In this document: piece by piece, positions 27,011 to 36,693 of the stretch
How the letters are laid out: each line of letters opens with the position of its first letter
Numbering within the stretch: the first letter of the stretch is position 1
IMG/VR virus record: IMGVR_UViG_3300037420_000510
Span: 325 to 64,324 of that record
Source: a virus
Strand: one strand, 5' to 3'
Length of the DNA stretch: 64,000 bases
Notes under the pieces: model-generated
Database searches by the model: none
Told to the model about the DNA's origin: nothing
Seen by the model: the letters and a program-made list of their open reading frames with translations, nothing else
Made by a program: the position numbers and the translations under genes

Positions 27011-27199
27011 ATGAAGGAACAACGCATTCGTCACGACATAGATGACGACGGTTGCTGCACATACTGCGGCGCCGACCTGGCTGAGGCGCATTGGCTTCGC
27101 TCGCAAACGCATCCTGACGACCGTGAGCCAGCCCAGGAATGGGAGCGCTTCTGCCTCCGCAAGGAAGCCGATGTGCGTCGCGGGAAGGTGATGCCATGA
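27011..27199 (+). CDS. Hypothetical protein
   Basis: CTYCG; RBS. Confidence 0.55.
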   Translation: MKEQRIRHDIDDDGCCTYCGADLAEAHWLRSQTHPDDREPAQEWERFCLRKEADVRRGKVMP

Positions 27200-27738
27200 C
27201 CTCGATGAACCTCTTCCGAGAACTGAAGCAGCGCGCCAGCCTGGCCTTTCGCATCTTGTGCGACTTCGACAGCAACCTCGAAGCCTACGCGGAGCGCGAA
27301 CTGCGCGCCGCCGGCTACTGCGATGACGAGATGAAGGGCCACACGGCGCAGGGCGTTCTGGACATGGTGCGCGTGTATTCGCTGCAGGGCCAGCGCGGCA
27401 CGGATGCATCGACCGCTTTGCAACTGTTCGACACGCTCGCGCGCTTCACGCCGATAGTCCCACTGACTGGCGCCGACAGCGAATGGGACGATGTCACCGA
27501 ACTCTCTGGCCGCCCGCTGTGGCTGAACAAGCGCTGCTCGCACGTGTTCAAGGGGGGTGACGGGCAGGCATACGACAGCGAGGCCATCATCTTTGAAAAG
27601 CCGAACGGCGAGCGCCTCACCAGCCGCCAGTTCATCACGTTCCCGTACACGCCGCGCTCGGTCGTCGTGCGCCTTCCGGTCGACGCGACTGAATCGGACA
27701 AGCGGCGGGCCGCGCAGATCGCATGGAGCGCAGCATGA
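27196..27738 (+). CDS. Conserved hypothetical phage protein
   Basis: PLTGADSEW...NKRCSHVFK...ITFPYTP. Confidence 0.7.
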   Translation: MTSMNLFRELKQRASLAFRILCDFDSNLEAYAERELRAAGYCDDEMKGHTAQGVLDMVRVYSLQGQRGTDASTALQLFDTLARFTPIVPLTGADSEWDDVTELSGRPLWLNKRCSHVFKGGDGQAYDSEAIIFEKPNGERLTSRQFITFPYTPRSVVVRLPVDATESDKRRAAQIAWSAA

Positions 27739-28892: not shown

Positions 28893-29116
28893 GCCTGTAC
28901 GGGTGCAACAACAAACCCCGCCCGGTGGCCGGCGCGCCGCTACAAGTGCAAGACGGCTATTTCGGGACATACGACCCGGCGCACGCCGCCACGGTTCGCC
29001 TTGCGCGCTGGATCATCGCTCCGTACGCGATGTCGACCGAGTGCCAGTACACCAAGCAGCACGCCAGCGATCCGCAGTGCTCGGGGTGTGTGCATCGCAT
29101 GAAGGAGGCGGCGTGA
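28889..29116 (+). CDS. Hypothetical Cys-containing protein
   Basis: YGCNNKPRP...CQY...CSGC. Confidence 0.6.
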   Translation: MSLYGCNNKPRPVAGAPLQVQDGYFGTYDPAHAATVRLARWIIAPYAMSTECQYTKQHASDPQCSGCVHRMKEAA

Positions 29117-29844
29117 CGGCCTACTACAACGAGATCGACGAGTACGCGGCCGCATGGCTGCGCAATCTGATCGCCGCTGGTCACATCGCGCCGGGGGAGG
29201 TCGACACAAGGAGTATTGAGGATGTACACCCCGCCGACCTGCAGGACTTCACCCAGTGCCACTTCTTCGCCGGCATCGGTGGATGGCCGCTCGCGCTTCG
29301 GCTCGCTGGATGGCCAGATGGTCGACTTGTTTGGACCGGTTCCTGCCCTTGCCAACCTTTCAGCTCGGCAGGCAAGGGAGTTGGGTTTGCTGACGAGCGG
29401 CACCTCTGGCCGGCATTCCACCACCTCATCAGCGAGCGTAAGCCTACAACGGTCCTTGGGGAGCAAGTTGCAAGCCCGGATGGGCTCGTCTGGCTCGACC
29501 AAGTTCAAGCTGACTTGGAAGCATCGGGCTACGCCATCGGGGCGGCTGATCTGTGCGCTGCGGGCGTCGGGGCGGATCACATCCGACAACGCCTTTACTG
29601 GGTTGCCCACTCCAAGCGGAACAAGCAATCACGGGAAGAACCACGTAGCCGGCCGCTTGGACGAATGGGGCGGGTCGAGCAACCCATTCCGTGGGACCGA
29701 GATTGGCAAAGTGCACTCGCCGGGTTTCGAGCTATGGGTGATGGGATTCCCCGCTGCGTGGAGGCAACTGATGCCGCCCGCAATGCGATCGTCCCGCAAG
29801 TCGCCCAGGTCTTCATCGAATGTGTAATGGAGTGCCAACCATGA
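29113..29844 (+). CDS. C5 cytosine methyltransferase, alpha polypeptide (motifs I-VIII and X)
   Basis: FFAGIGG, GSCPCQPFS, GEQV, HIRQRLYW, NAIVPQVA; GTG start after GGAGG. Confidence 0.85.
   Translation: MTAYYNEIDEYAAAWLRNLIAAGHIAPGEVDTRSIEDVHPADLQDFTQCHFFAGIGGWPLALRLAGWPDGRLVWTGSCPCQPFSSAGKGVGFADERHLWPAFHHLISERKPTTVLGEQVASPDGLVWLDQVQADLEASGYAIGAADLCAAGVGADHIRQRLYWVAHSKRNKQSREEPRSRPLGRMGRVEQPIPWDRDWQSALAGFRAMGDGIPRCVEATDAARNAIVPQVAQVFIECVMECQP
29318..29827 (+). CDS. Nested alternative-frame beta polypeptide carrying motif IX
   Basis: Frame open from 29216 to 29827, wholly inside the MTase gene; MVDLFGPVPALANLS...ELWVMGFPAAW. Confidence 0.7.
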   Translation: MVDLFGPVPALANLSARQARELGLLTSGTSGRHSTTSSASVSLQRSLGSKLQARMGSSGSTKFKLTWKHRATPSGRLICALRASGRITSDNAFTGLPTPSGTSNHGKNHVAGRLDEWGGSSNPFRGTEIGKVHSPGFELWVMGFPAAWRQLMPPAMRSSRKSPRSSSNV

Positions 29845-31143: not shown

Positions 31144-31727
31144 ACGAAGAGAACGCAACCCGGCTTGCCATGCAGGCGGAGGTCGAGAGAGACATCACGC
31201 CGGGCTTGCCGCGAGTCGACCGCGCAATCGCGTTCGTGCACACGCGCGGCATGGCGACGTCCTCCGAGCTGCACATGGTGATGGAACTGGAGCAGGACGA
31301 ACTGGTATCGCATCATCTCGCCGACGCGCTTGCCGATGGCCGGCTGATCAAGGACGGGAAGCGTTGGGCGCCCGGTGTTGGTCCAGCGGTCACGGAGACG
31401 CAGGCGCCGCAATACGCCATCCCGACATTCGTCCCGCCGCAGCCCGTCGACAACGTGGTCTCGCTCGAACCGCAGCGCACATCACGCGTCAAGCCCGTGG
31501 ACAAACTCGATTTCGCCGCGTTCGCCGACATGGTGAACAGCCAGGTCGAGATCGGCAGCGCGCCCGCTCGCAACCCGGCGCCGGTCATCCGCTGCGGCCT
31601 GTGGTCGGATGGCTCCGTCGAGGTTCAGCGTGACGGTAAGACGTCAGCAGTGCTGTTCGTGGAAGAGGTGGCCTGTCTCGCAGATTTCTGGAAGCGCGTA
31701 TCGAATAACACCAAGGAGGCAATGTGA
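31140..31727 (+). CDS. Hypothetical protein
   Basis: GGAG RBS; operon overlap. Confidence 0.6.
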   Translation: MNEENATRLAMQAEVERDITPGLPRVDRAIAFVHTRGMATSSELHMVMELEQDELVSHHLADALADGRLIKDGKRWAPGVGPAVTETQAPQYAIPTFVPPQPVDNVVSLEPQRTSRVKPVDKLDFAAFADMVNSQVEIGSAPARNPAPVIRCGLWSDGSVEVQRDGKTSAVLFVEEVACLADFWKRVSNNTKEAM

Positions 31728-32578
31728 GTAGATTGACTGACCAAGACCGTCGTTTCGGCCCGATTACCTACGGGCGCTCCGACTGGGCGGCGTTTCGCGC
31801 CGTGTTCCGTAGCGGCGACGACGAAGAGTCGCGCAATTCATTCACTGTGAACGCCTTCGGATGGGTGGCGCGCGTGTGGCTTCCAGCGATCCTTCAGCCG
31901 CACAAGGTCAAGTGCGACGCAAAGTACTGGAGTGCCGAAGATATCGCCAGGATGGGCCGCGACTGGTATTACGAAATCTCGCCGCGCGAATTCGGGTTTT
32001 GCCTCTGCCACGGACATCTGTCGGTCTACTACGGCCGGCAAACCGACAGTAGCCTCACGACCAGGCGGCACGGTTGGTTCCTGCCGTGGAGGCAATGGCG
32101 CTACGTCCGTTACTCGCTGTACGACCGCGACGGCAAGATGTTCTGGGAGCAGCACAAGAAGAAGGGCATTCGCGGCATGAAAGCGTTCTCGGATCTGTAC
32201 GAGGCTGAGAAAGCATGTCCGGCCGCCTCGTTTCTGATTCGCGACTACGACGGCACAGAGGTCACAGCACGTACGGTCATCGACGAACGCGAATGGCGAT
32301 TCGGTGAAGGCTGGTTCCGGTGGCTCAGCTGGTTCCGCGCCCCGAAGATTCGCCGCTCATTGAAGATCGAATTCAGTGCCGAGGTTGGCACCCAGAAGGG
32401 ATCGTGGAAGGGCGGTCTTGTCGGCACGGGTATCGACATGCTGCCGGGCGAATTGCATGAATCGGCTATGCGTCGCTACTGCGCGAAAGAGCATCGAGAC
32501 AAGTACGGCAAGTACCGCATCACGTTCCTCAGTGTCGCAACCCAGTCAACCACCACAGCACCTACGGAGTCCGAATGA
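31724..32578 (+). CDS. Hypothetical phage protein (Trp/Arg-rich)
   Basis: 284-aa ORF with overlaps. Confidence 0.7.
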   Translation: MSRLTDQDRRFGPITYGRSDWAAFRAVFRSGDDEESRNSFTVNAFGWVARVWLPAILQPHKVKCDAKYWSAEDIARMGRDWYYEISPREFGFCLCHGHLSVYYGRQTDSSLTTRRHGWFLPWRQWRYVRYSLYDRDGKMFWEQHKKKGIRGMKAFSDLYEAEKACPAASFLIRDYDGTEVTARTVIDEREWRFGEGWFRWLSWFRAPKIRRSLKIEFSAEVGTQKGSWKGGLVGTGIDMLPGELHESAMRRYCAKEHRDKYGKYRITFLSVATQSTTTAPTESE

Positions 32579-32934
32579 CCGCCGCCGAAAAAATCGTCGT
32601 AGAACAAGCGCCCGACGCCGATTCCCCATTCATCGCCGTGATGAAGACTTGGGCGCGTTGGATGACCCTCAAGGATGATATCCGTCGTTCGGCAGGTCTT
32701 TCGCACCCGCAAGATGTCAAAGAGTTCATGTCGTGCGGCGAAGCGGTCGATGCTCTGGTTCACGATCGAGTAGTACTTACCGAGCATCAGCGCTGGGCTG
32801 TAAAGAGGGTTTTTGGGGTCGCATCAGTTTGGCGCTACCCCGATGTCTCATTGCCAGACACTTTTGCGGCAGCCGAAAAAGAATTGACGCCTCGACTGAT
32901 AAAAAATGTTGCCACGCGACGATATTTCAATTAG
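32575..32934 (+). CDS. Putative late regulator (Q position)
   Basis: Last early gene, followed by a promoter and terminator; family not confirmed. Confidence 0.5.
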   Translation: MTAAEKIVVEQAPDADSPFIAVMKTWARWMTLKDDIRRSAGLSHPQDVKEFMSCGEAVDALVHDRVVLTEHQRWAVKRVFGVASVWRYPDVSLPDTFAAAEKELTPRLIKNVATRRYFN

Positions 32935-32937
32935 GAT
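32909..32937 (+). promoter_or_regulatory. pR'-like late promoter
   Basis: TTGCCA-N17-TAGGAT. Confidence 0.55.
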
Positions 32938-32974
32938 AGTCGTGCTAGCAGTCAATATTGCGCTCTAGCGAACG

Positions 32975-33000
32975 AAACCCGCCACATCAGGCGGGTTTTT
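32975..33000 (+). terminator. tR'-like terminator
   Basis: AAACCCGCC-ACATCA-GGCGGGTTTTT. Confidence 0.75.
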
Positions 33001-33104
33001 CGTTTACGGCCCGCTTGGCAGATCGCCTTGGCTGGCCTCAATCCGACGCACAGTGGCTCGGCCCCGCTGATCACCTTCCTGTTGAGTTGCAAAAACGCTG
33101 CCTG

Positions 33105-33332
33105 ATGCGGAGCGTCGGCGCCCGACTGGTGCGCAACCAGCCACCCATTCCATACATCAGCGAGCCAGATATGCAGAAGGAGCCGGAGCCGAGCGGCACC
33201 GATGCGGTATTCGTCGTTGTTTGCCTGCTGATCGCGCTCATCTGGTTTGTCTCGCTGATGGTCGACGCCACGCAGGAGATGCTGCGCGAGGCGCTGGCGA
33301 GATTTATGTTTCACGGGTGGTTCAGCAACTAA
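33105..33332 (+). CDS. Small single-TM protein
   Basis: AVFVVVCLLIALIWFVSLMV; start could be 33171. Confidence 0.5.
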   Translation: MRSVGARLVRNQPPIPYISEPDMQKEPEPSGTDAVFVVVCLLIALIWFVSLMVDATQEMLREALARFMFHGWFSN

Positions 33333-33354
33333 CCGATAGCTTCGCCGGCTCAAC

Positions 33355-33805
33355 CAGCGGCCACACGCATAGCGATTGATGGCGTTCAGTTCGGGTGCAG
33401 TCCGTTCTGTAAGGCTTCTGCACCAGTCGCTAGCCGTGTGGGTAACGGTGCAGAATTGGCTGCATTCATCCCTCGTGGGCGCCTGCGGACGCGTAGGCCG
33501 GATGGTTCACGAAACGAGCCGCCACACATCGACGTTCATTGCCTCGCCGTGCCCGTATGGGACTTGAGAGGCAGTGCGTCGATGTGTGGCGTAAGCGGGG
33601 CGCTTACCCGCGAAAGTGACGTTAAAGCCGGTATGCTCGGCCGGCCTTGAGTGCAAAGAGGTACGGGGTGCGTCACGCATACCCCGTAGTCGGAAATCAG
33701 CGCCGACCGCCACAACGAGTTCCCGCTCTGCGAAAGCATCGGGCTTGCAGGAATCAGCTAGAGCTGCCGCGCTCTCCCGCCGAGCCGGCGCACTTTCGGC
33801 GCGAC
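33355..33805 (+). ncRNA. Candidate large structured non-coding RNA (family unassigned)
   Basis: At least 9 consecutive stems, including a perfect 14-bp stem 33521-33534/33577-33590; no credible CDS. Confidence 0.5.
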
Positions 33806-33807
33806 CT

Positions 33808-34134
33808 TCAAAAGTCCAGCTGCTCGACAGTAATGCCTAGTGCGGCCGCAATTTTTTCGATGGTCGACCGGCGCAGCGACTCACTGTATTCCTGCTTTGC
33901 ATAGGACGGCTGCGAGATGCCCAAGCGCTGGGCCATCTCGGTTTGCGTCAGCTTGAGGTATTCGCGCCAGGCGCGCACCGGCGTGGCGCCGTCCACCGTC
34001 GCGCTCACCACCTCGTGAGGAATGGTGCCGCGTTCGGCAGTGAGGGTTTTTCGGTACTCGTCATACGGAATGACGACAAAGGCCGGCTTCCCGTCCGGCC
34101 CGTTGATCACTTGAATGTTAGTAGGTGCGTTCAT
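33808..34134 (-). CDS. XRE-HTH antitoxin (HigA-like)
   Basis: PAFVVIPYDEY; RAWREYLKLTQTEMAQRLGISQPSYAKQE. Confidence 0.85.
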   Translation of the reverse strand: MNAPTNIQVINGPDGKPAFVVIPYDEYRKTLTAERGTIPHEVVSATVDGATPVRAWREYLKLTQTEMAQRLGISQPSYAKQEYSESLRRSTIEKIAAALGITVEQLDF

Positions 34135-34372
34135 CTCGCTTGCTCACTTCGTTGATTTCGACGATCTTGATTTGCCCGTCCCAATCGAACAACACCCTGT
34201 AATTTCCGACTCTGAGACGATATCCGCTTGAGTGGTTCGTCAGCGCCTTGACGTTCTGGCAGTTCGGCATATCGGCCAGCTTCGTCACCGCATCGCGGAT
34301 CGGTCCTTGCACCTGCTTGTCCAACTTACGCAGTTGCTTGGCGGCTTTAGGGGTCCAGTTGATCGAGTTCAT
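34118..34372 (-). CDS. RelE/ParE-family toxin (toxin-first, HigB-like)
   Basis: WTPKAAKQLRKL...YRLRVGNYRVLF. Confidence 0.9.
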   Translation of the reverse strand: MNSINWTPKAAKQLRKLDKQVQGPIRDAVTKLADMPNCQNVKALTNHSSGYRLRVGNYRVLFDWDGQIKIVEINEVSKRDERTY

Positions 34373-34379
34373 GAGTACA

Positions 34380-34419
34380 AGTATAGCCTAAATATAGCCT
34401 TTGTCAAGAAAAGGCTATA
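34380..34419 (-). promoter_or_regulatory. TA promoter with operator palindrome
   Basis: Minus strand TTGACA-N16-TATACT; TATAGCCTTT...AAAGGCTATA inverted repeat. Confidence 0.75.
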
Positions 34420-34464
34420 ATGAGTTCCGTTGTCTCCTCCAAAACCTCCCTGGTTCTGGATTCG

Positions 34465-34499
34465 CCGCCTGCCGCAGCAATGCACAGGCGGTTTTTTTT
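34465..34499 (+). terminator. Rho-independent terminator
   Basis: CCGCCTG...CAGGCGG plus T8. Confidence 0.75.
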
Positions 34500-35958: not shown

Positions 35959-36693
35959 ATGGCCCTCACCCCCAAACAGCAGCGCTTCGTCGACGAGTAC
36001 CTCCTCGACTTGAACGCGACCCAGGCAGCTATTCGCGCCGGGTATAGCACGAAGCGCGCTGACGCCATGGGGCATGAGAACCTGAGAAAACCCGAGATTT
36101 CAGCCGCTATTACCGCAGCCATGAAGGCGCGTGAGGAGCGCACCGAGATCACGCAGGACATGGTGCTCCAGCGTTTCTGGCAGATCGCCACCGCTGACGC
36201 GAACGACCTTGTTCAGTACCGTCGCAACTGTTGCCGTCACTGCTGGGGCATCGATCACTTTTACCATTGGACGGAAGCGGAATTCGAGGCTGCCAAGATC
36301 GAGGCGGCGAAGAAGAACAACGCCGAGCCGACCTGCGAAGGTGGTTTCGGCTTCGACAAGCTCAAGGCCGCGAATCCCGAGTGCCCCGAGTGTAAGGGCG
36401 AGGGCAAGGGCTCGATGCACGTGCAGGACACGCGCAACCTGAAGGGCGGCGCCAGGCTGATGTACGCCGGCGTGAAGCTCGGCAAGGATGGACTGGAGGT
36501 CAAGATGCACGACCAGATGGCGGCGCTGGAAAAAGTCGCTCGCCACCTTGGCATGTTCAAGGACCGCACCGAAATCAGCGGCCCGAACGGCGGCCCGATC
36601 CAGACCGAATCCCGAAAACTGCAGGACATGACCGACGATGAACTCCTTGCCATCGCAACAGGCCGCGGCGAAGGAACTTCTGATCCGGCGTAG
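35959..36693 (+). CDS. Terminase small subunit (with Cys-rich insertion)
   Basis: LTPKQQRFVDEYLLDLNATQAAIRAGYS; CRHC and CPEC. Confidence 0.92.
   Translation: MALTPKQQRFVDEYLLDLNATQAAIRAGYSTKRADAMGHENLRKPEISAAITAAMKAREERTEITQDMVLQRFWQIATADANDLVQYRRNCCRHCWGIDHFYHWTEAEFEAAKIEAAKKNNAEPTCEGGFGFDKLKAANPECPECKGEGKGSMHVQDTRNLKGGARLMYAGVKLGKDGLEVKMHDQMAALEKVARHLGMFKDRTEISGPNGGPIQTESRKLQDMTDDELLAIATGRGEGTSDPA

What the first reader, a model, noticed from the sequence alone, without database searches (positions are those of the whole stretch)
33355..33805. ~450-nt ornate non-coding RNA candidate at the start of the late transcript
Seen: nested stems 33361/33441, 33370/33432 and 33394/33424; a 14-bp perfect stem plus a 9-bp stem (33521-33590); further stems at 33591, 33627, 33662 (8+3 bp), 33689, 33722 (GAAA tetraloop) and 33778. 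Three modules begin GCCACA, and GCGGACGCG/GGCCGGA motifs recur in the capsid leaders. No tRNA cloverleaf or credible CDS. Established: lambdoid late leaders carry tRNAs and sRNAs, and large phage ncRNAs (GOLLD, ROOL) exist. Inference: an unassigned structured RNA, possibly a protein sponge or packaging/anti-defence RNA, whose 3' side abuts a TA insertion.
Basis: partly seen in the sequence, partly recalled or inferred. Interest (0 to 1): 0.65.

Follow-up and report, generated by a model that had tools for sequence, protein, structure and literature searches.

The report
Phage late-leader array of RNA modules
The 450-base gap is not one large RNA but a string of separately folding hairpin modules in the leader of a phage's late genes; one module is a perfect, toxin-less copy of the first hairpin of the small RNA that accompanies a MazF-type bacterial toxin, so the locus may be an RNA counter-defence site.

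Summary
Only two hairpins fold better than chance: A (33361-33441, z -2.6) and C (33521-33590, z -8.8).

Relatives show a mosaic, not one ornate RNA. Modules are swapped independently among more than 20 related phages. They sit in a slot between a Q-like gene with its promoter and terminator and a terminal sRNA resembling RF02278.

The long hairpins sit in a conserved frame, CCACAC[cargo]GUGUGG. The cargo differs between phages but always pairs. In relatives the slot holds tRNA-like cargo or true tRNAs.

The hairpin at 33719-33744 (P1) recurs in the same form in about 40 phage contexts across bacterial phyla, and its stems covary. It is the 5' hairpin of a ~120-nt RNA that follows a PemK/MazF-like toxin in 75 of 76 loci. 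This phage has no such toxin, and neither do 38 of 40 P1-bearing viral records.

Best reading: a late-transcribed array of stable RNA modules, with P1 a candidate antitoxin mimic. That function is untested. Earlier notes of this scan had already found the toxin-RNA pair on other DNA.

The parts
32575..32934 (+). 119-aa gene, the last gene before the packaging genes in related phages; candidate Q21/AlpA-type antiterminator
   Evidence: Gene order in relatives. Model pLDDT 81. Best VIA-align matches are AlpA 7xyb_G (Z 6.4) and Q21 6jnx_P (Z 6.0), beside sigma region 4. These are weak and only suggestive. No Pfam or PHROG hit.
32909..33003 (+). Promoter-like TTGCCA-17-TAGGAT followed about 35 nt later by an intrinsic terminator hairpin (32973-33003); a lambdoid PR'/tR'-like layout
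   Evidence: Promoter-like site from the scan; terminator hairpin read from the sequence; the arrangement is conserved in L004, L011, L018, L022, L024, L025, L131, L129 and L254. That it is a late promoter is inference.
33040..33140 (+). Conserved non-coding module upstream of the finding: hairpin CAGUGG..CCGCUG plus a minihelix
   Evidence: 81-90% nucleotide identity (87-90% in six of the seven) in L004, L009, L014, L015, L020, L021, and 84% in L035, in a different order relative to the small ORF; a similar stretch is seen by eye in L131.
33343..33359 (+). Junction minihelix H0 with conserved leader 33325-33366, followed by G-CCA
   Evidence: Leader is 90-93% identical in L007, L011 and L023. 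One compensatory A-U to G-C change against L018. Fold.
33361..33441 (+). Hairpin cassette A: base CCACACG/CGUGUGG, a 2x2 internal loop, then a 9-bp helix
   Evidence: Homologues in L035, L004, L094, L112, L102, L018, L020 and L021. 17 consensus pairs, 5 of them with compensatory changes. z = -2.6.
33442..33520 (+). Spacer B with small hairpins and a putative minihelix at 33504-33520 before GCCA
   Evidence: Fold not better than shuffles, z = -0.5. Found elsewhere only in near-identical L035, and 33497-33527 in L034.
33521..33590 (+). Hairpin cassette C: 14-bp perfect stem plus 9-bp stem in the CCACAC/GUGUGG frame
   Evidence: z = -8.8. 94% identical in L014. At the same place L035 has an unrelated cargo that still pairs.
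33591..33688 (+). Segment D: hairpin GUAAGCG-GGG-CGCUUAC, a GCCGG hairpin, and the 8+3-bp hairpin at 33662-33688
   Evidence: z = -1.2. Conserved only in L014, with a 1-nt indel that argues against coding.
33689..33719 (+). Junction minihelix E (GUCGG-loop-CCGAC) plus CGCCACAACGAG
   Evidence: Homologous minihelices in L014, L035, L093, L022 and L025 read GCCGG/CCGGC, so the U-A in the window is a compensatory change. Loop GAUCAGC is conserved.
33719..33744 (+). P1: hairpin CCCG-CUC-UGC-GAAA-GCA-U-CGGG, an orphan copy of the 5' hairpin of the RNA partner of a PemK/MazF-like toxin
   Evidence: Exact matches in 35 IMG/VR stretches and 9 genomes of several phyla. Stem covariation. Model R1 scores 36.5 bits through P1 only. 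No Rfam family.
33745..33805 (+). Tail F after P1; does not match P2/P3 of the toxin-partner RNA
   Evidence: Near-identical only in L035. Low posterior alignment to R1. 33689-33806 folds with z = +0.4.
33808..34372 (-). Inserted type II toxin-antitoxin cassette: HTH antitoxin 33808-34134 and RelE/ParE toxin 34118-34372, with its promoter at 34380-34407
   Evidence: Pfam HTH_3 and ParE_toxin; PHROG 7241 and 1213. Promoter scan. L014 joins E directly to the terminal sRNA, without P1 or the cassette.
34431..34499 (+). Terminal double-hairpin sRNA and terminator that closes the slot, 11 nt before the next SD/ATG
   Evidence: Rfam RF02278 at 44.6 bits against a gathering score of 50, E = 3e-8. The same element ends the slot in 20 or more relatives.

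Best explanation
Window 33340-33805, together with 33040-33140 and 34431-34499, is this phage's version of a hypervariable non-coding slot in the leader of the late (packaging and structural) operon.

The slot holds an array of independently folding RNA modules, not one RNA. Its parts are:
- long hairpin cassettes in a conserved frame, minihelix-NCCA-CAC[cargo]GUGUGG-short hairpin; here these are A and C;
- junction minihelices H0 and E;
- P1, a 26-nt hairpin that is the 5' hairpin of the ~120-nt RNA invariably encoded behind a PemK/MazF-like toxin that has no protein antitoxin.

Proposed working (inferred):
- The array is transcribed rightwards from the late promoter by termination-resistant RNA polymerase.
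- It is cut into stable hairpin RNAs.
- These act in trans as mimics or decoys of host RNAs and RNA antitoxins.
- P1 would bind the host's MazF-like toxin and so blunt an abortive-infection response, as pseudo-ToxI does for ToxN.

Shown: non-coding status, modularity, structural conservation, + strand polarity, and the toxin-RNA linkage with the orphan state of P1.
Inferred: late transcription, processing and the decoy function.
For: Modularity:
- Segments are shared piecemeal with L014, L035, L004, L094, L102, L112, L007, L011 and L034.
- The slot length between the Q-like gene and the RF02278-like element varies from about 220 to 1550 nt among relatives.

Structure kept while sequence changes:
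- 22 frame hairpins carry unrelated cargos that all pair, with 6-18 bp beyond or at the conserved base.
- Hairpin A has 5 compensatory pairs; minihelix E has one.

Strand:
- The + strand folds better in 16 of 22 hairpins, summed -837 against -782 kcal/mol, with 59 G-U pairs against 33.
- tRNAs, terminators and TATAAT boxes in relatives lie on the same strand.

P1 is a real RNA helix:
- Outer stem variants with the core unchanged: CCUG/CAGG, CUUG/CAAG, CUGG/CCAG, GAGG/CCUC, UCCG/CGGG.
- Inner stem variants: UGU/ACA, plus G-U variants.

P1 belongs to the toxin-partner RNA:
- ORF clustering found a PF02452 protein ending 27-46 nt upstream of P1 in 7 loci from several phyla, with no conserved protein antitoxin.
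- Model R1 matches 75 of 76 assessable loci that were fetched by the toxin alone.
- In that alignment 28 of 32 pairs have double changes, 96.9% of cells are paired, and 0 of 500 shuffles reach the observed values.

Orphan state:
- No PemK in this complete phage record.
- 38 of 40 P1-bearing viral records lack the toxin, including all 9 that are at least 90% complete.

Context:
- Tad3 and Acb3 anti-defence genes lie 1-6 kb upstream.
- The toxin-RNA pair occurs in 3 of 201 genomes of the candidate host family.
- Precedent for RNA antitoxin mimicry by a phage: PMC3475682.
Against:
- The window has only P1; P2, P3 and the conserved P3 loop of the partner RNA are absent. Nothing shows that P1 alone binds the toxin, or that the partner RNA is an antitoxin at all.
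- Segments B, D and F have no significant fold and almost no comparative support.
- Hairpin A folds at least as well on the - strand by z-score, -4.0 against -2.6.
- The copies fetched by the P1 pattern scans were found by exact or near-exact pattern, which inflates apparent sequence invariance. Toxin-linked copies show that the apical loop is free: GAAA, UUCG, UUAC and longer stems.
- The toxin is rare in the candidate host family, 3 of 201 genomes.
- The Q-like assignment rests on Z about 6, which is below the level that is informative for helical proteins.
Confidence: 0.4

Rival explanations
1. Cis-acting leader furniture. The hairpins are processing, stability or insulation elements of the late polycistronic transcript: RNase III or RNase P sites, 5' and 3' protective hairpins, pause or anti-termination signals. 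P1 would be a portable 5' stabiliser or processing module that many phage transcripts and the toxin-partner RNA share. None of the modules would have a trans-acting function.
For: - P1 sits right after a -10 box at the start of transcripts in L094, L112, L160, L162 and L164.
- It is followed by an intrinsic terminator 47-170 nt downstream in at least 15 of 39 copies, against 2 of 39 in the control.
- It precedes unrelated genes: SSB, tail, primase, capsid, terminase.
- Long near-perfect stems such as C are classic RNase III substrates (established knowledge).
- The slot lies between a promoter-terminator pair and the first late genes.
Against: - A mere protective hairpin needs no conserved bulge sequence, yet CUC..U is kept across phyla.
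- Cargo turnover among close relatives and tRNA-like cargos are not expected of fixed processing sites.
- Compact relatives such as L129, L005 and L006 do with little or none of the array.
Confidence: 0.25
2. Decaying cargo. The slot is a hot spot for moron insertion, and the stretch is a patchwork of relics without present function: degenerated tRNA genes, a remnant of a lost PemK-RNA cassette (P1), terminator fragments and recombination junctions.
For: - The same slot holds three intact tRNAs in a cultured Pseudoduganella prophage, tRNA-like cargos in L011, L023, L093, L009 and L014, and a TA cassette here.
- Earlier scan notes place MazF-like toxin plus RNA cassettes directly behind Q-type promoters.
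- B, D and F show no fold signal.
- Module order is permuted between phages.
Against: - P1 is letter-perfect in about 40 toxin-less phage contexts while its flanks are unrelated, which indicates purifying selection.
- No PemK remnant is found in six frames at E <= 1.
- Frame hairpins keep pairing through compensatory changes, which relics would lose.
Confidence: 0.17
3. One large ornate structured RNA of about 450 nt, comparable to GOLLD or ROOL.
For: - Overall MFE z = -3.3.
- The location next to tRNA-type cargo in a phage resembles where GOLLD and ROOL are found (PMC5737381, listed; otherwise my own knowledge).
Against: - No Rfam hit.
- No homologue spans the stretch; the parts are exchanged independently.
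- The signal comes from two local hairpins.
- The MFE long-range pairs are not conserved, because their partners are absent in L014 and L035.
Confidence: 0.06
4. DNA-level element: a packaging (pac/cos) site, origin or recombination site made of inverted repeats close to the terminase genes.
For: - Hairpin C is an almost perfect inverted repeat with equal z on both strands, -8.8 and -8.4.
- The slot lies about 2.4 kb upstream of terS.
- Mosaic borders fall at the conserved CCACAC/GUGUGG bases.
Against: - There is a G-U excess and better folding on the + strand across 22 hairpins.
- P1 variants include G-U pairs that would be A-C mismatches on the other strand.
- tRNAs, promoters and terminators interleave on one strand.
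- Cargo sequence is not conserved, as a protein-binding DNA site would be.
Confidence: 0.05

Closest known systems
Small RNA that follows a PemK/MazF-like 'orphan' toxin. I found no paper on it; it is noted repeatedly by earlier agents of this scan and is modelled here as R1.
   Same: - P1 (33719-33744) is identical to the commonest form of that RNA's 5' hairpin: outer stem CCCG/CGGG, CUC bulge, 3-bp upper stem, tetraloop and U bulge.
- It is on the same strand as the surrounding RNA genes.
- Earlier notes place this pair in the same genomic niche, behind a Q-type promoter in prophages.
   Different: - The window lacks the AAGUCC linker, P2, P3 with its GGNGAUNNCAANCC loop, and the RNA's own terminator.
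- It lacks the toxin gene.
- Here P1 lies inside an array rather than at a transcript start.
Pseudo-ToxI of Pectobacterium phage PhiTE (Blower et al. 2012, PMC3475682)
   Same: A phage carries a toxin-less, partial copy of the RNA partner of a Kid/MazF-fold endoribonuclease toxin. The proposed working is the same: RNA mimicry that disarms an abortive-infection toxin.
   Different: - ToxI is a tandem 36-nt repeat processed by ToxN, with proven antitoxin and escape function.
- P1 is a single hairpin of a non-repetitive RNA whose antitoxin role is itself untested.
- There is no sequence similarity.
tRNA and moron islands in lambdoid late leaders, between Q/PR'-tR' and the first late genes, for example the tRNA genes upstream of stx in Stx phages (my own knowledge)
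   Same: - Position directly after a Q-position gene, promoter and terminator.
- Variable cargo.
- True tRNAs fill the same slot in relatives (L254, L025, L093).
   Different: - This phage has no tRNA in the slot.
- The cargo is long hairpins in a conserved CCACAC/GUGUGG frame plus P1.
- The Q-like protein is only weakly similar to Q21/AlpA.
GOLLD and ROOL large phage-associated RNAs (Rfam; PMC5737381)
   Same: Phage-borne, non-coding, rich in hairpins, and found near tRNA-type genes.
   Different: No match to either covariance model. The stretch is not one conserved architecture but shuffled modules.
Betaproteobacteria toxic small RNA, Rfam RF02278 (double-hairpin, CU-rich sRNAs of Burkholderia; PMC5688073)
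   Same: Window 34431-34499 aligns end to end: UGUCUCCUCC, a first hairpin, then a terminator hairpin. This element closes the slot in relatives.
   Different: - It scores 44.6 bits against a gathering score of 50.
- It lies outside the finding's coordinates.
- It is phage-borne and placed 11 nt before a late gene.

Membership tests
Any Rfam 15 family (including GOLLD, ROOL, tRNA, YrlA, ribozymes, C4, ToxI) | Score at or above the family's gathering threshold in cmscan | tested here: not met
   0 matches in the whole window at gathering score. In 32900-34000 only noise with E >= 0.22.
tRNA | Cloverleaf detectable by ARAGORN or Rfam RF00005 | tested here: not met
   No tRNA in the window. Relatives do have tRNAs or tRNA-like cargo in the same slot.
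PemK/MazF-partner RNA (model R1, built here) | 5' hairpin P1 with CUC bulge and U bulge | tested here: met
   Identical to the consensus; contributes the 36.5 bits, E = 5e-9.
PemK/MazF-partner RNA (model R1, built here) | Linker AAGUCC, helix P2, helix P3 with loop GGNGAUNNCAANCC, own terminator | tested here: not met
   Everything after P1 aligns with low posterior probability and without the conserved loop. Toxin-linked copies mostly score 50-120 bits (range 28-121).
PemK/MazF-partner RNA (model R1, built here) | Lies 20-60 nt (rarely about 190 nt) downstream of a PF02452 toxin gene on the same strand | tested here: not met
   No PF02452 match in the 64.9-kb record at E <= 1. The rule holds in 75 of 76 loci fetched by the toxin.
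Type III toxin-antitoxin RNA antitoxins (ToxI, CptI, TenpI) | Tandem direct repeats of about 34-45 nt upstream of the toxin gene, separated from it by a terminator | tested here: not met
   No Rfam ToxI hit. The modules are not repeats of one unit: only the CCACAC/GUGUGG bases recur. No toxin of that kind is adjacent.
Type III toxin-antitoxin RNA antitoxins (ToxI, CptI, TenpI) | The RNA binds and inhibits the toxin protein | not testable with these tools
   Needs co-expression and binding assays.
Rfam RF02278 (for 34431-34499 only) | Gathering score of 50 bits | tested here: inconclusive
   44.6 bits, E = 3e-8 in a 181-nt search, full-length alignment. Relatives score 30-43 bits.
Q21/AlpA-type antiterminator (for the 119-aa gene that defines 'late leader') | Fold similarity to Q21 or AlpA; gene directly upstream of a promoter plus terminator | tested here: inconclusive
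   Z 6.4 (7xyb_G) and 6.0 (6jnx_P) among sigma region 4 hits; Foldseek found nothing. The layout criterion is met.

The most novel reading that the evidence does not exclude
The slot is a multi-decoy RNA counter-defence locus. Each cassette would be a stable mimic of a host RNA, or of an RNA antitoxin, that host RNA-cutting defences recognise:
- P1 for a MazF-like toxin whose natural antidote is an RNA;
- tRNA-like cargos for anticodon nucleases;
- in relatives, an exact copy of a 23S rRNA hairpin loop.

The cassettes would be swapped among phages inside a common processing frame. In that case P1 is the minimal toxin-binding element of an undescribed class of RNA-antitoxin systems.
Probability: 0.22. 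Interest if true: 0.85.

Novelty: new variant of a known kind. Interest (0 to 1): 0.6.

Why it matters
- If P1 neutralises the MazF-like toxin, this is a second, independent case of phage RNA mimicry of an antitoxin after PhiTE pseudo-ToxI. It would be far more widespread: about 40 phage contexts across phyla.
- It would also give a handle on a large toxin family, with at least 512 relatives in one metagenome collection, whose antidote appears to be an RNA and which I did not find described.
- The conserved frame that presents ever-changing hairpin or tRNA-like cargo in the late leader suggests a general cassette system for phage RNA accessories. Such a system is invisible to protein-based annotation of anti-defence islands.
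- If the rivals hold, the stretch is ordinary leader furniture or decaying cargo.

Tried and rejected
- Rfam at gathering score and by E-value on the window and on 31 related loci: only tRNAs, one permuted tmRNA and sub-threshold RF02278.
- blastn of 33000-33810 against GenBank phages: no match. TerL has no close cultured relative, at most 46% identity.
- Full-text search for the P1 sequence in papers: none. Searches on GOLLD/ROOL and on processive antitermination gave nothing that describes P1.
- P1 as a mimic of a host RNA: no similar stretch in the first ~1950 nt of a 23S rRNA. Only one exact copy per bacterial genome, the rest at chance-like mismatch levels.
- P1 as a put/nut/boxA-type antitermination element: considered because of CGCUCU, the GNRA hairpin, the downstream terminators and boxA-like UGUUCUUU in L091, L099 and L108. 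Not pursued, because P1 also lies inside arrays and tRNA clusters and because of the toxin linkage. It is kept under the cis-acting rival.
- Self-cleaving ribozyme: no Rfam ribozyme hit. Not testable further here.
- Foldseek against the PDB for the 119-aa protein: nothing at E <= 0.001.
- PADLOC on the PemK-like toxins: no hit.
- Coding reading of 33355-33805: seven ORFs of 47-85 aa have no Pfam hit and are broken by a 1-nt indel or by segment replacement in L014 and L035.

Full report
**Context.**
- The window is a 64.9-kb IMG/VR virus record that CheckV rates complete.
- Rightward genes before the finding are DnaB, a ParB-like protein, Tad3 (27139-27738), a C5 methyltransferase, an HNH endonuclease and Acb3 (31724-32578). 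They end with a 119-aa gene of unknown family at 32575-32934.
- After the finding come a leftward RelE/ParE-HTH toxin-antitoxin pair (33808-34372), two small ORFs, terS (35959-36693) and terL.
- In many related phages the 119-aa gene is the last gene before the terminase genes, sometimes after NinG or YbcO. Cultured homologues are in Pseudoduganella and Massilia.
- Its model (pLDDT 81) matches the antiterminators AlpA (Z 6.4) and Q21 (Z 6.0) best, among sigma region 4 domains. This is weak and only suggestive.
- Overlapping its end is a promoter-like TTGCCA-17-TAGGAT, followed by an intrinsic terminator at 32973-33003. This pair is conserved in relatives.
- I therefore accept "start of the late transcript" as a reasonable inference, not as a shown fact.

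**Observation.**
- The 471 nt fold with z = -3.3 on the + strand and -2.8 on the - strand.
- The signal is local. Hairpin C (33521-33590) has z = -8.8 and hairpin A (33361-33441) z = -2.6. The segments 33442-33520, 33591-33690 and 33689-33806 are not better than shuffles.
- There is no tRNA and no Rfam family.
- The seven ORFs of 47-85 aa have no Pfam hit. They are disrupted in the two homologues by a 1-nt indel or by replacement of a segment.
- GCGGACGCG and GCCACA occur at chance frequency in the window.

**Mosaic, not one RNA.**
- Only two other contigs share long parts of the stretch. L014/L003 match 33520-33716 at 94%. L035/L085 are near-identical over 33424-33527 and 33690-33810 but carry an unrelated sequence in between.
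- Shorter pieces recur elsewhere: the leader 33325-33366 in L007, L011 and L023; 33497-33527 in L034; 33040-33140 in seven loci and in a different order.
- In relatives the distance from the 119-aa gene to a terminal element beginning UGUCUCCUCC runs from about 220 to 1550 nt.
- That element is a sub-threshold match to Rfam RF02278. In the window it lies at 34431-34499 (44.6 bits, E = 3e-8), that is, beyond the toxin-antitoxin cassette.
- L014 joins minihelix E directly to this element. L093 has E-P1-tRNA(Tyr)-element.
- So P1, its tail and the toxin-antitoxin cassette are insertions into a pre-existing slot.

**The frame.**
- In 22 cases in the slot of this phage group, a long hairpin begins NCCACAC and ends GUGUGG. 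It is followed by UGAAUGCGC or a similar short hairpin, and it is preceded by a 5-6-bp minihelix ending in NCCA.
- The cargos between the conserved bases are unrelated in sequence yet always pair, with perfect runs of 6-18 bp.
- Hairpin A has homologues in eight loci, with 5 of 17 pairs showing compensatory changes.
- Minihelix E reads GUCGG/CCGAC here and GCCGG/CCGGC elsewhere.
- Some cargos are tRNA-like: ARAGORN calls a 97-nt tRNA-Gln in L011 and L023, and L093, L009 and L014 look so by eye.
- True tRNAs occupy the slot in L025, in L093 and in a cultured Pseudoduganella chitinolytica prophage, which has three of them.
- The + strand folds better in 16 of 22 hairpins and has 59 G-U pairs against 33 on the other strand. 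This agrees with the strand of the tRNAs, terminators and promoters.

**P1.**
- The 19-mer CTCTGCGAAAGCATCGGGC occurs in 35 IMG/VR stretches, 29 distinct contexts of very different G+C content.
- The 22-mer occurs in nine bacterial genomes: Planctomycetota, Actinobacteria, Bacteroidota and Alpha-, Beta- and Gammaproteobacteria.
- It also turned up in L131, which was fetched through the 119-aa protein and not through P1.
- The flanks are unrelated. P1 lies after -10 boxes, inside tRNA arrays, or in front of SSB, tail, primase, capsid or terminase genes.
- Degenerate scans show that the stems covary while the core is unchanged.
  - Outer stem variants: CCUG/CAGG, CUUG/CAAG, CUGG/CCAG, GAGG/CCUC. 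Seven of 29 new loci have 4 of 4 pairs, against about 0.8 expected.
  - Inner stem variants: UGU/ACA and two G-U variants.

**What P1 belongs to.**
- Clustering ORFs around all P1 copies gave one widely shared protein. It is 133-156 aa and ends 27-46 nt before P1 in seven loci. It is PF02452 PemK/MazF-like, with no conserved protein antitoxin nearby and no PADLOC hit.
- In these loci P1 is followed by AAGUCC, a helix P2, a helix P3 with a conserved loop, and a terminator. In eight sequences, 19 of 32 pairs have compensatory changes.
- I built model R1 from them. I then fetched 80 metagenome loci through the toxin protein alone, out of at least 512 relatives.
- R1 matches 75 of the 76 loci with enough downstream DNA, on the same strand, usually 20-50 nt after the gene.
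- In that alignment 96.9% of cells are paired, 28 of 32 pairs have double changes, no shuffle reaches the observed values, and slid controls give about 40% pairing. The alignment is fitted to the model, which favours the structure.
- These unbiased copies show that the apical loop of P1 is free (GAAA, UUCG, UUAC, longer stems), while the CUC bulge, the U-A pair and the U bulge are kept.
- Earlier agents of this scan had reached the same toxin-RNA pairing on other genomes, and one noted pieces of the RNA in phage tRNA arrays. I found the link before reading those notes and tested it independently.

**Orphan state.**
- The window matches R1 only through P1 (36.5 bits), and the phage has no PemK-like gene.
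- Of 40 viral records with P1, 38 lack the toxin, including all nine that are at least 90% complete.
- Their copies score 20-56 bits, meaning P1 alone or P1 plus a part of the RNA. Toxin-linked copies mostly score far higher, up to about 120 bits.
- The toxin-RNA pair exists in the candidate host family, but rarely: 3 of 201 genomes.

**Interpretation.**
- What is shown: a non-coding, modular, + strand array whose modules are conserved as structures. One of them is a selectively maintained, toxin-less copy of the first hairpin of a toxin-partner RNA.
- What is inferred: late transcription through the slot, processing at the frames, and a trans-acting decoy role.
- The decoy role has a precedent in pseudo-ToxI of phage PhiTE (PMC3475682).
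- The location beside Tad3 and Acb3 fits an accessory anti-defence region.
- The main rival is that the hairpins, P1 included, are cis-acting processing or stability elements of the late transcript. Relics of past insertions are the next rival. A single ornate RNA or a DNA-level site is unlikely.

**Limits.**
- There is no expression evidence.
- Comparative depth is small for B, D and F.
- The P1 copies obtained by the pattern scans were found by pattern, which overstates invariance.
- That the partner RNA is an antitoxin is itself untested.

Noticed in passing
window 27139-27738 and 31724-32578: Two recently defined anti-defence genes on the early rightward strand: Tad3 (type I Thoeris inhibitor, PF25185, E = 3e-29) and Acb3 (CBASS inhibitor, PF25187, E = 1e-63). 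A C5 DNA methyltransferase lies at 28903-29844.
   Followed up: partly
window 34431-34499: Double-hairpin CU-rich sRNA with terminator, just under the Rfam RF02278 threshold (44.6 against 50 bits). It lies 11 nt before the next ATG, and the same element closes the slot in 20 or more related phages. The gathering-score scan missed it.
   Followed up: partly
L018:4820-4842, L022:4777-4800, L024, L025, L011, L093, L094, L112, L131:905-927: A linker hairpin in relatives carries GUAACUUCGGGAGAAG (or GAUAAG/GACAAG). This is an exact copy of a 16-nt loop region of a 23S rRNA hairpin, checked in a real 23S at L133:3156. Its closing stems covary: GCGC/GCGC, GCUGC/GCAGC, CCG/CGG, UCG/CGA. It looks like an rRNA-hairpin mimic and is not present in the window.
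   Followed up: partly
window 32575-32934: The 119-aa protein of no known family is always the last gene before the terminase block. It has invariant W26, W29, W74 and W86, and a weak fold match to the antiterminators AlpA and Q21. It is a candidate for a new small Q-type late regulator.
   Followed up: partly
window 33171-33332: A 53-aa ORF with a hydrophobic core lies between the first conserved RNA module and the array. It is about 79% identical at the nucleotide level in L009, L015, L020, L021 and L035, and its order relative to 33040-33140 is reversed there.
   Followed up: no
L138 (provirus record G035:C1:1305-1703): In one of the two P1-bearing viral records that do carry the PemK-like toxin, the toxin has one in-frame TGA. 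In that record P1 has an A-G mismatch in its inner stem.
   Followed up: no
L091, L099, L107, L114 (+39 to +41 after P1) and L108 (+48): P1-led RNAs in these phages contain UGUUCUUU(C/G)A, which resembles the boxA sequence of rRNA antitermination. It is followed by a terminator and then SD-ATG. This may be a leader with Nus-dependent read-through.
   Followed up: no
L254:3457-3731 (Pseudoduganella chitinolytica CP119083 prophage): A cultured strain carries the same Q-like gene, promoter and terminator. Three tRNA genes (Ser-UGA, Ser-GCU, Tyr-GUA), each with an encoded CCA, fill the slot. This strain is an experimental entry point for the slot.
   Followed up: partly
L160, L162, L164: Low-G+C phages have a P1 variant (ACUG/CAGG outer stem) directly after TATAAT. 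About 80 nt further on there is a second TATAAT followed by a different hairpin beginning GUACCCGCCACGCGAGG. This suggests a family of promoter-proximal hairpin modules.
   Followed up: no
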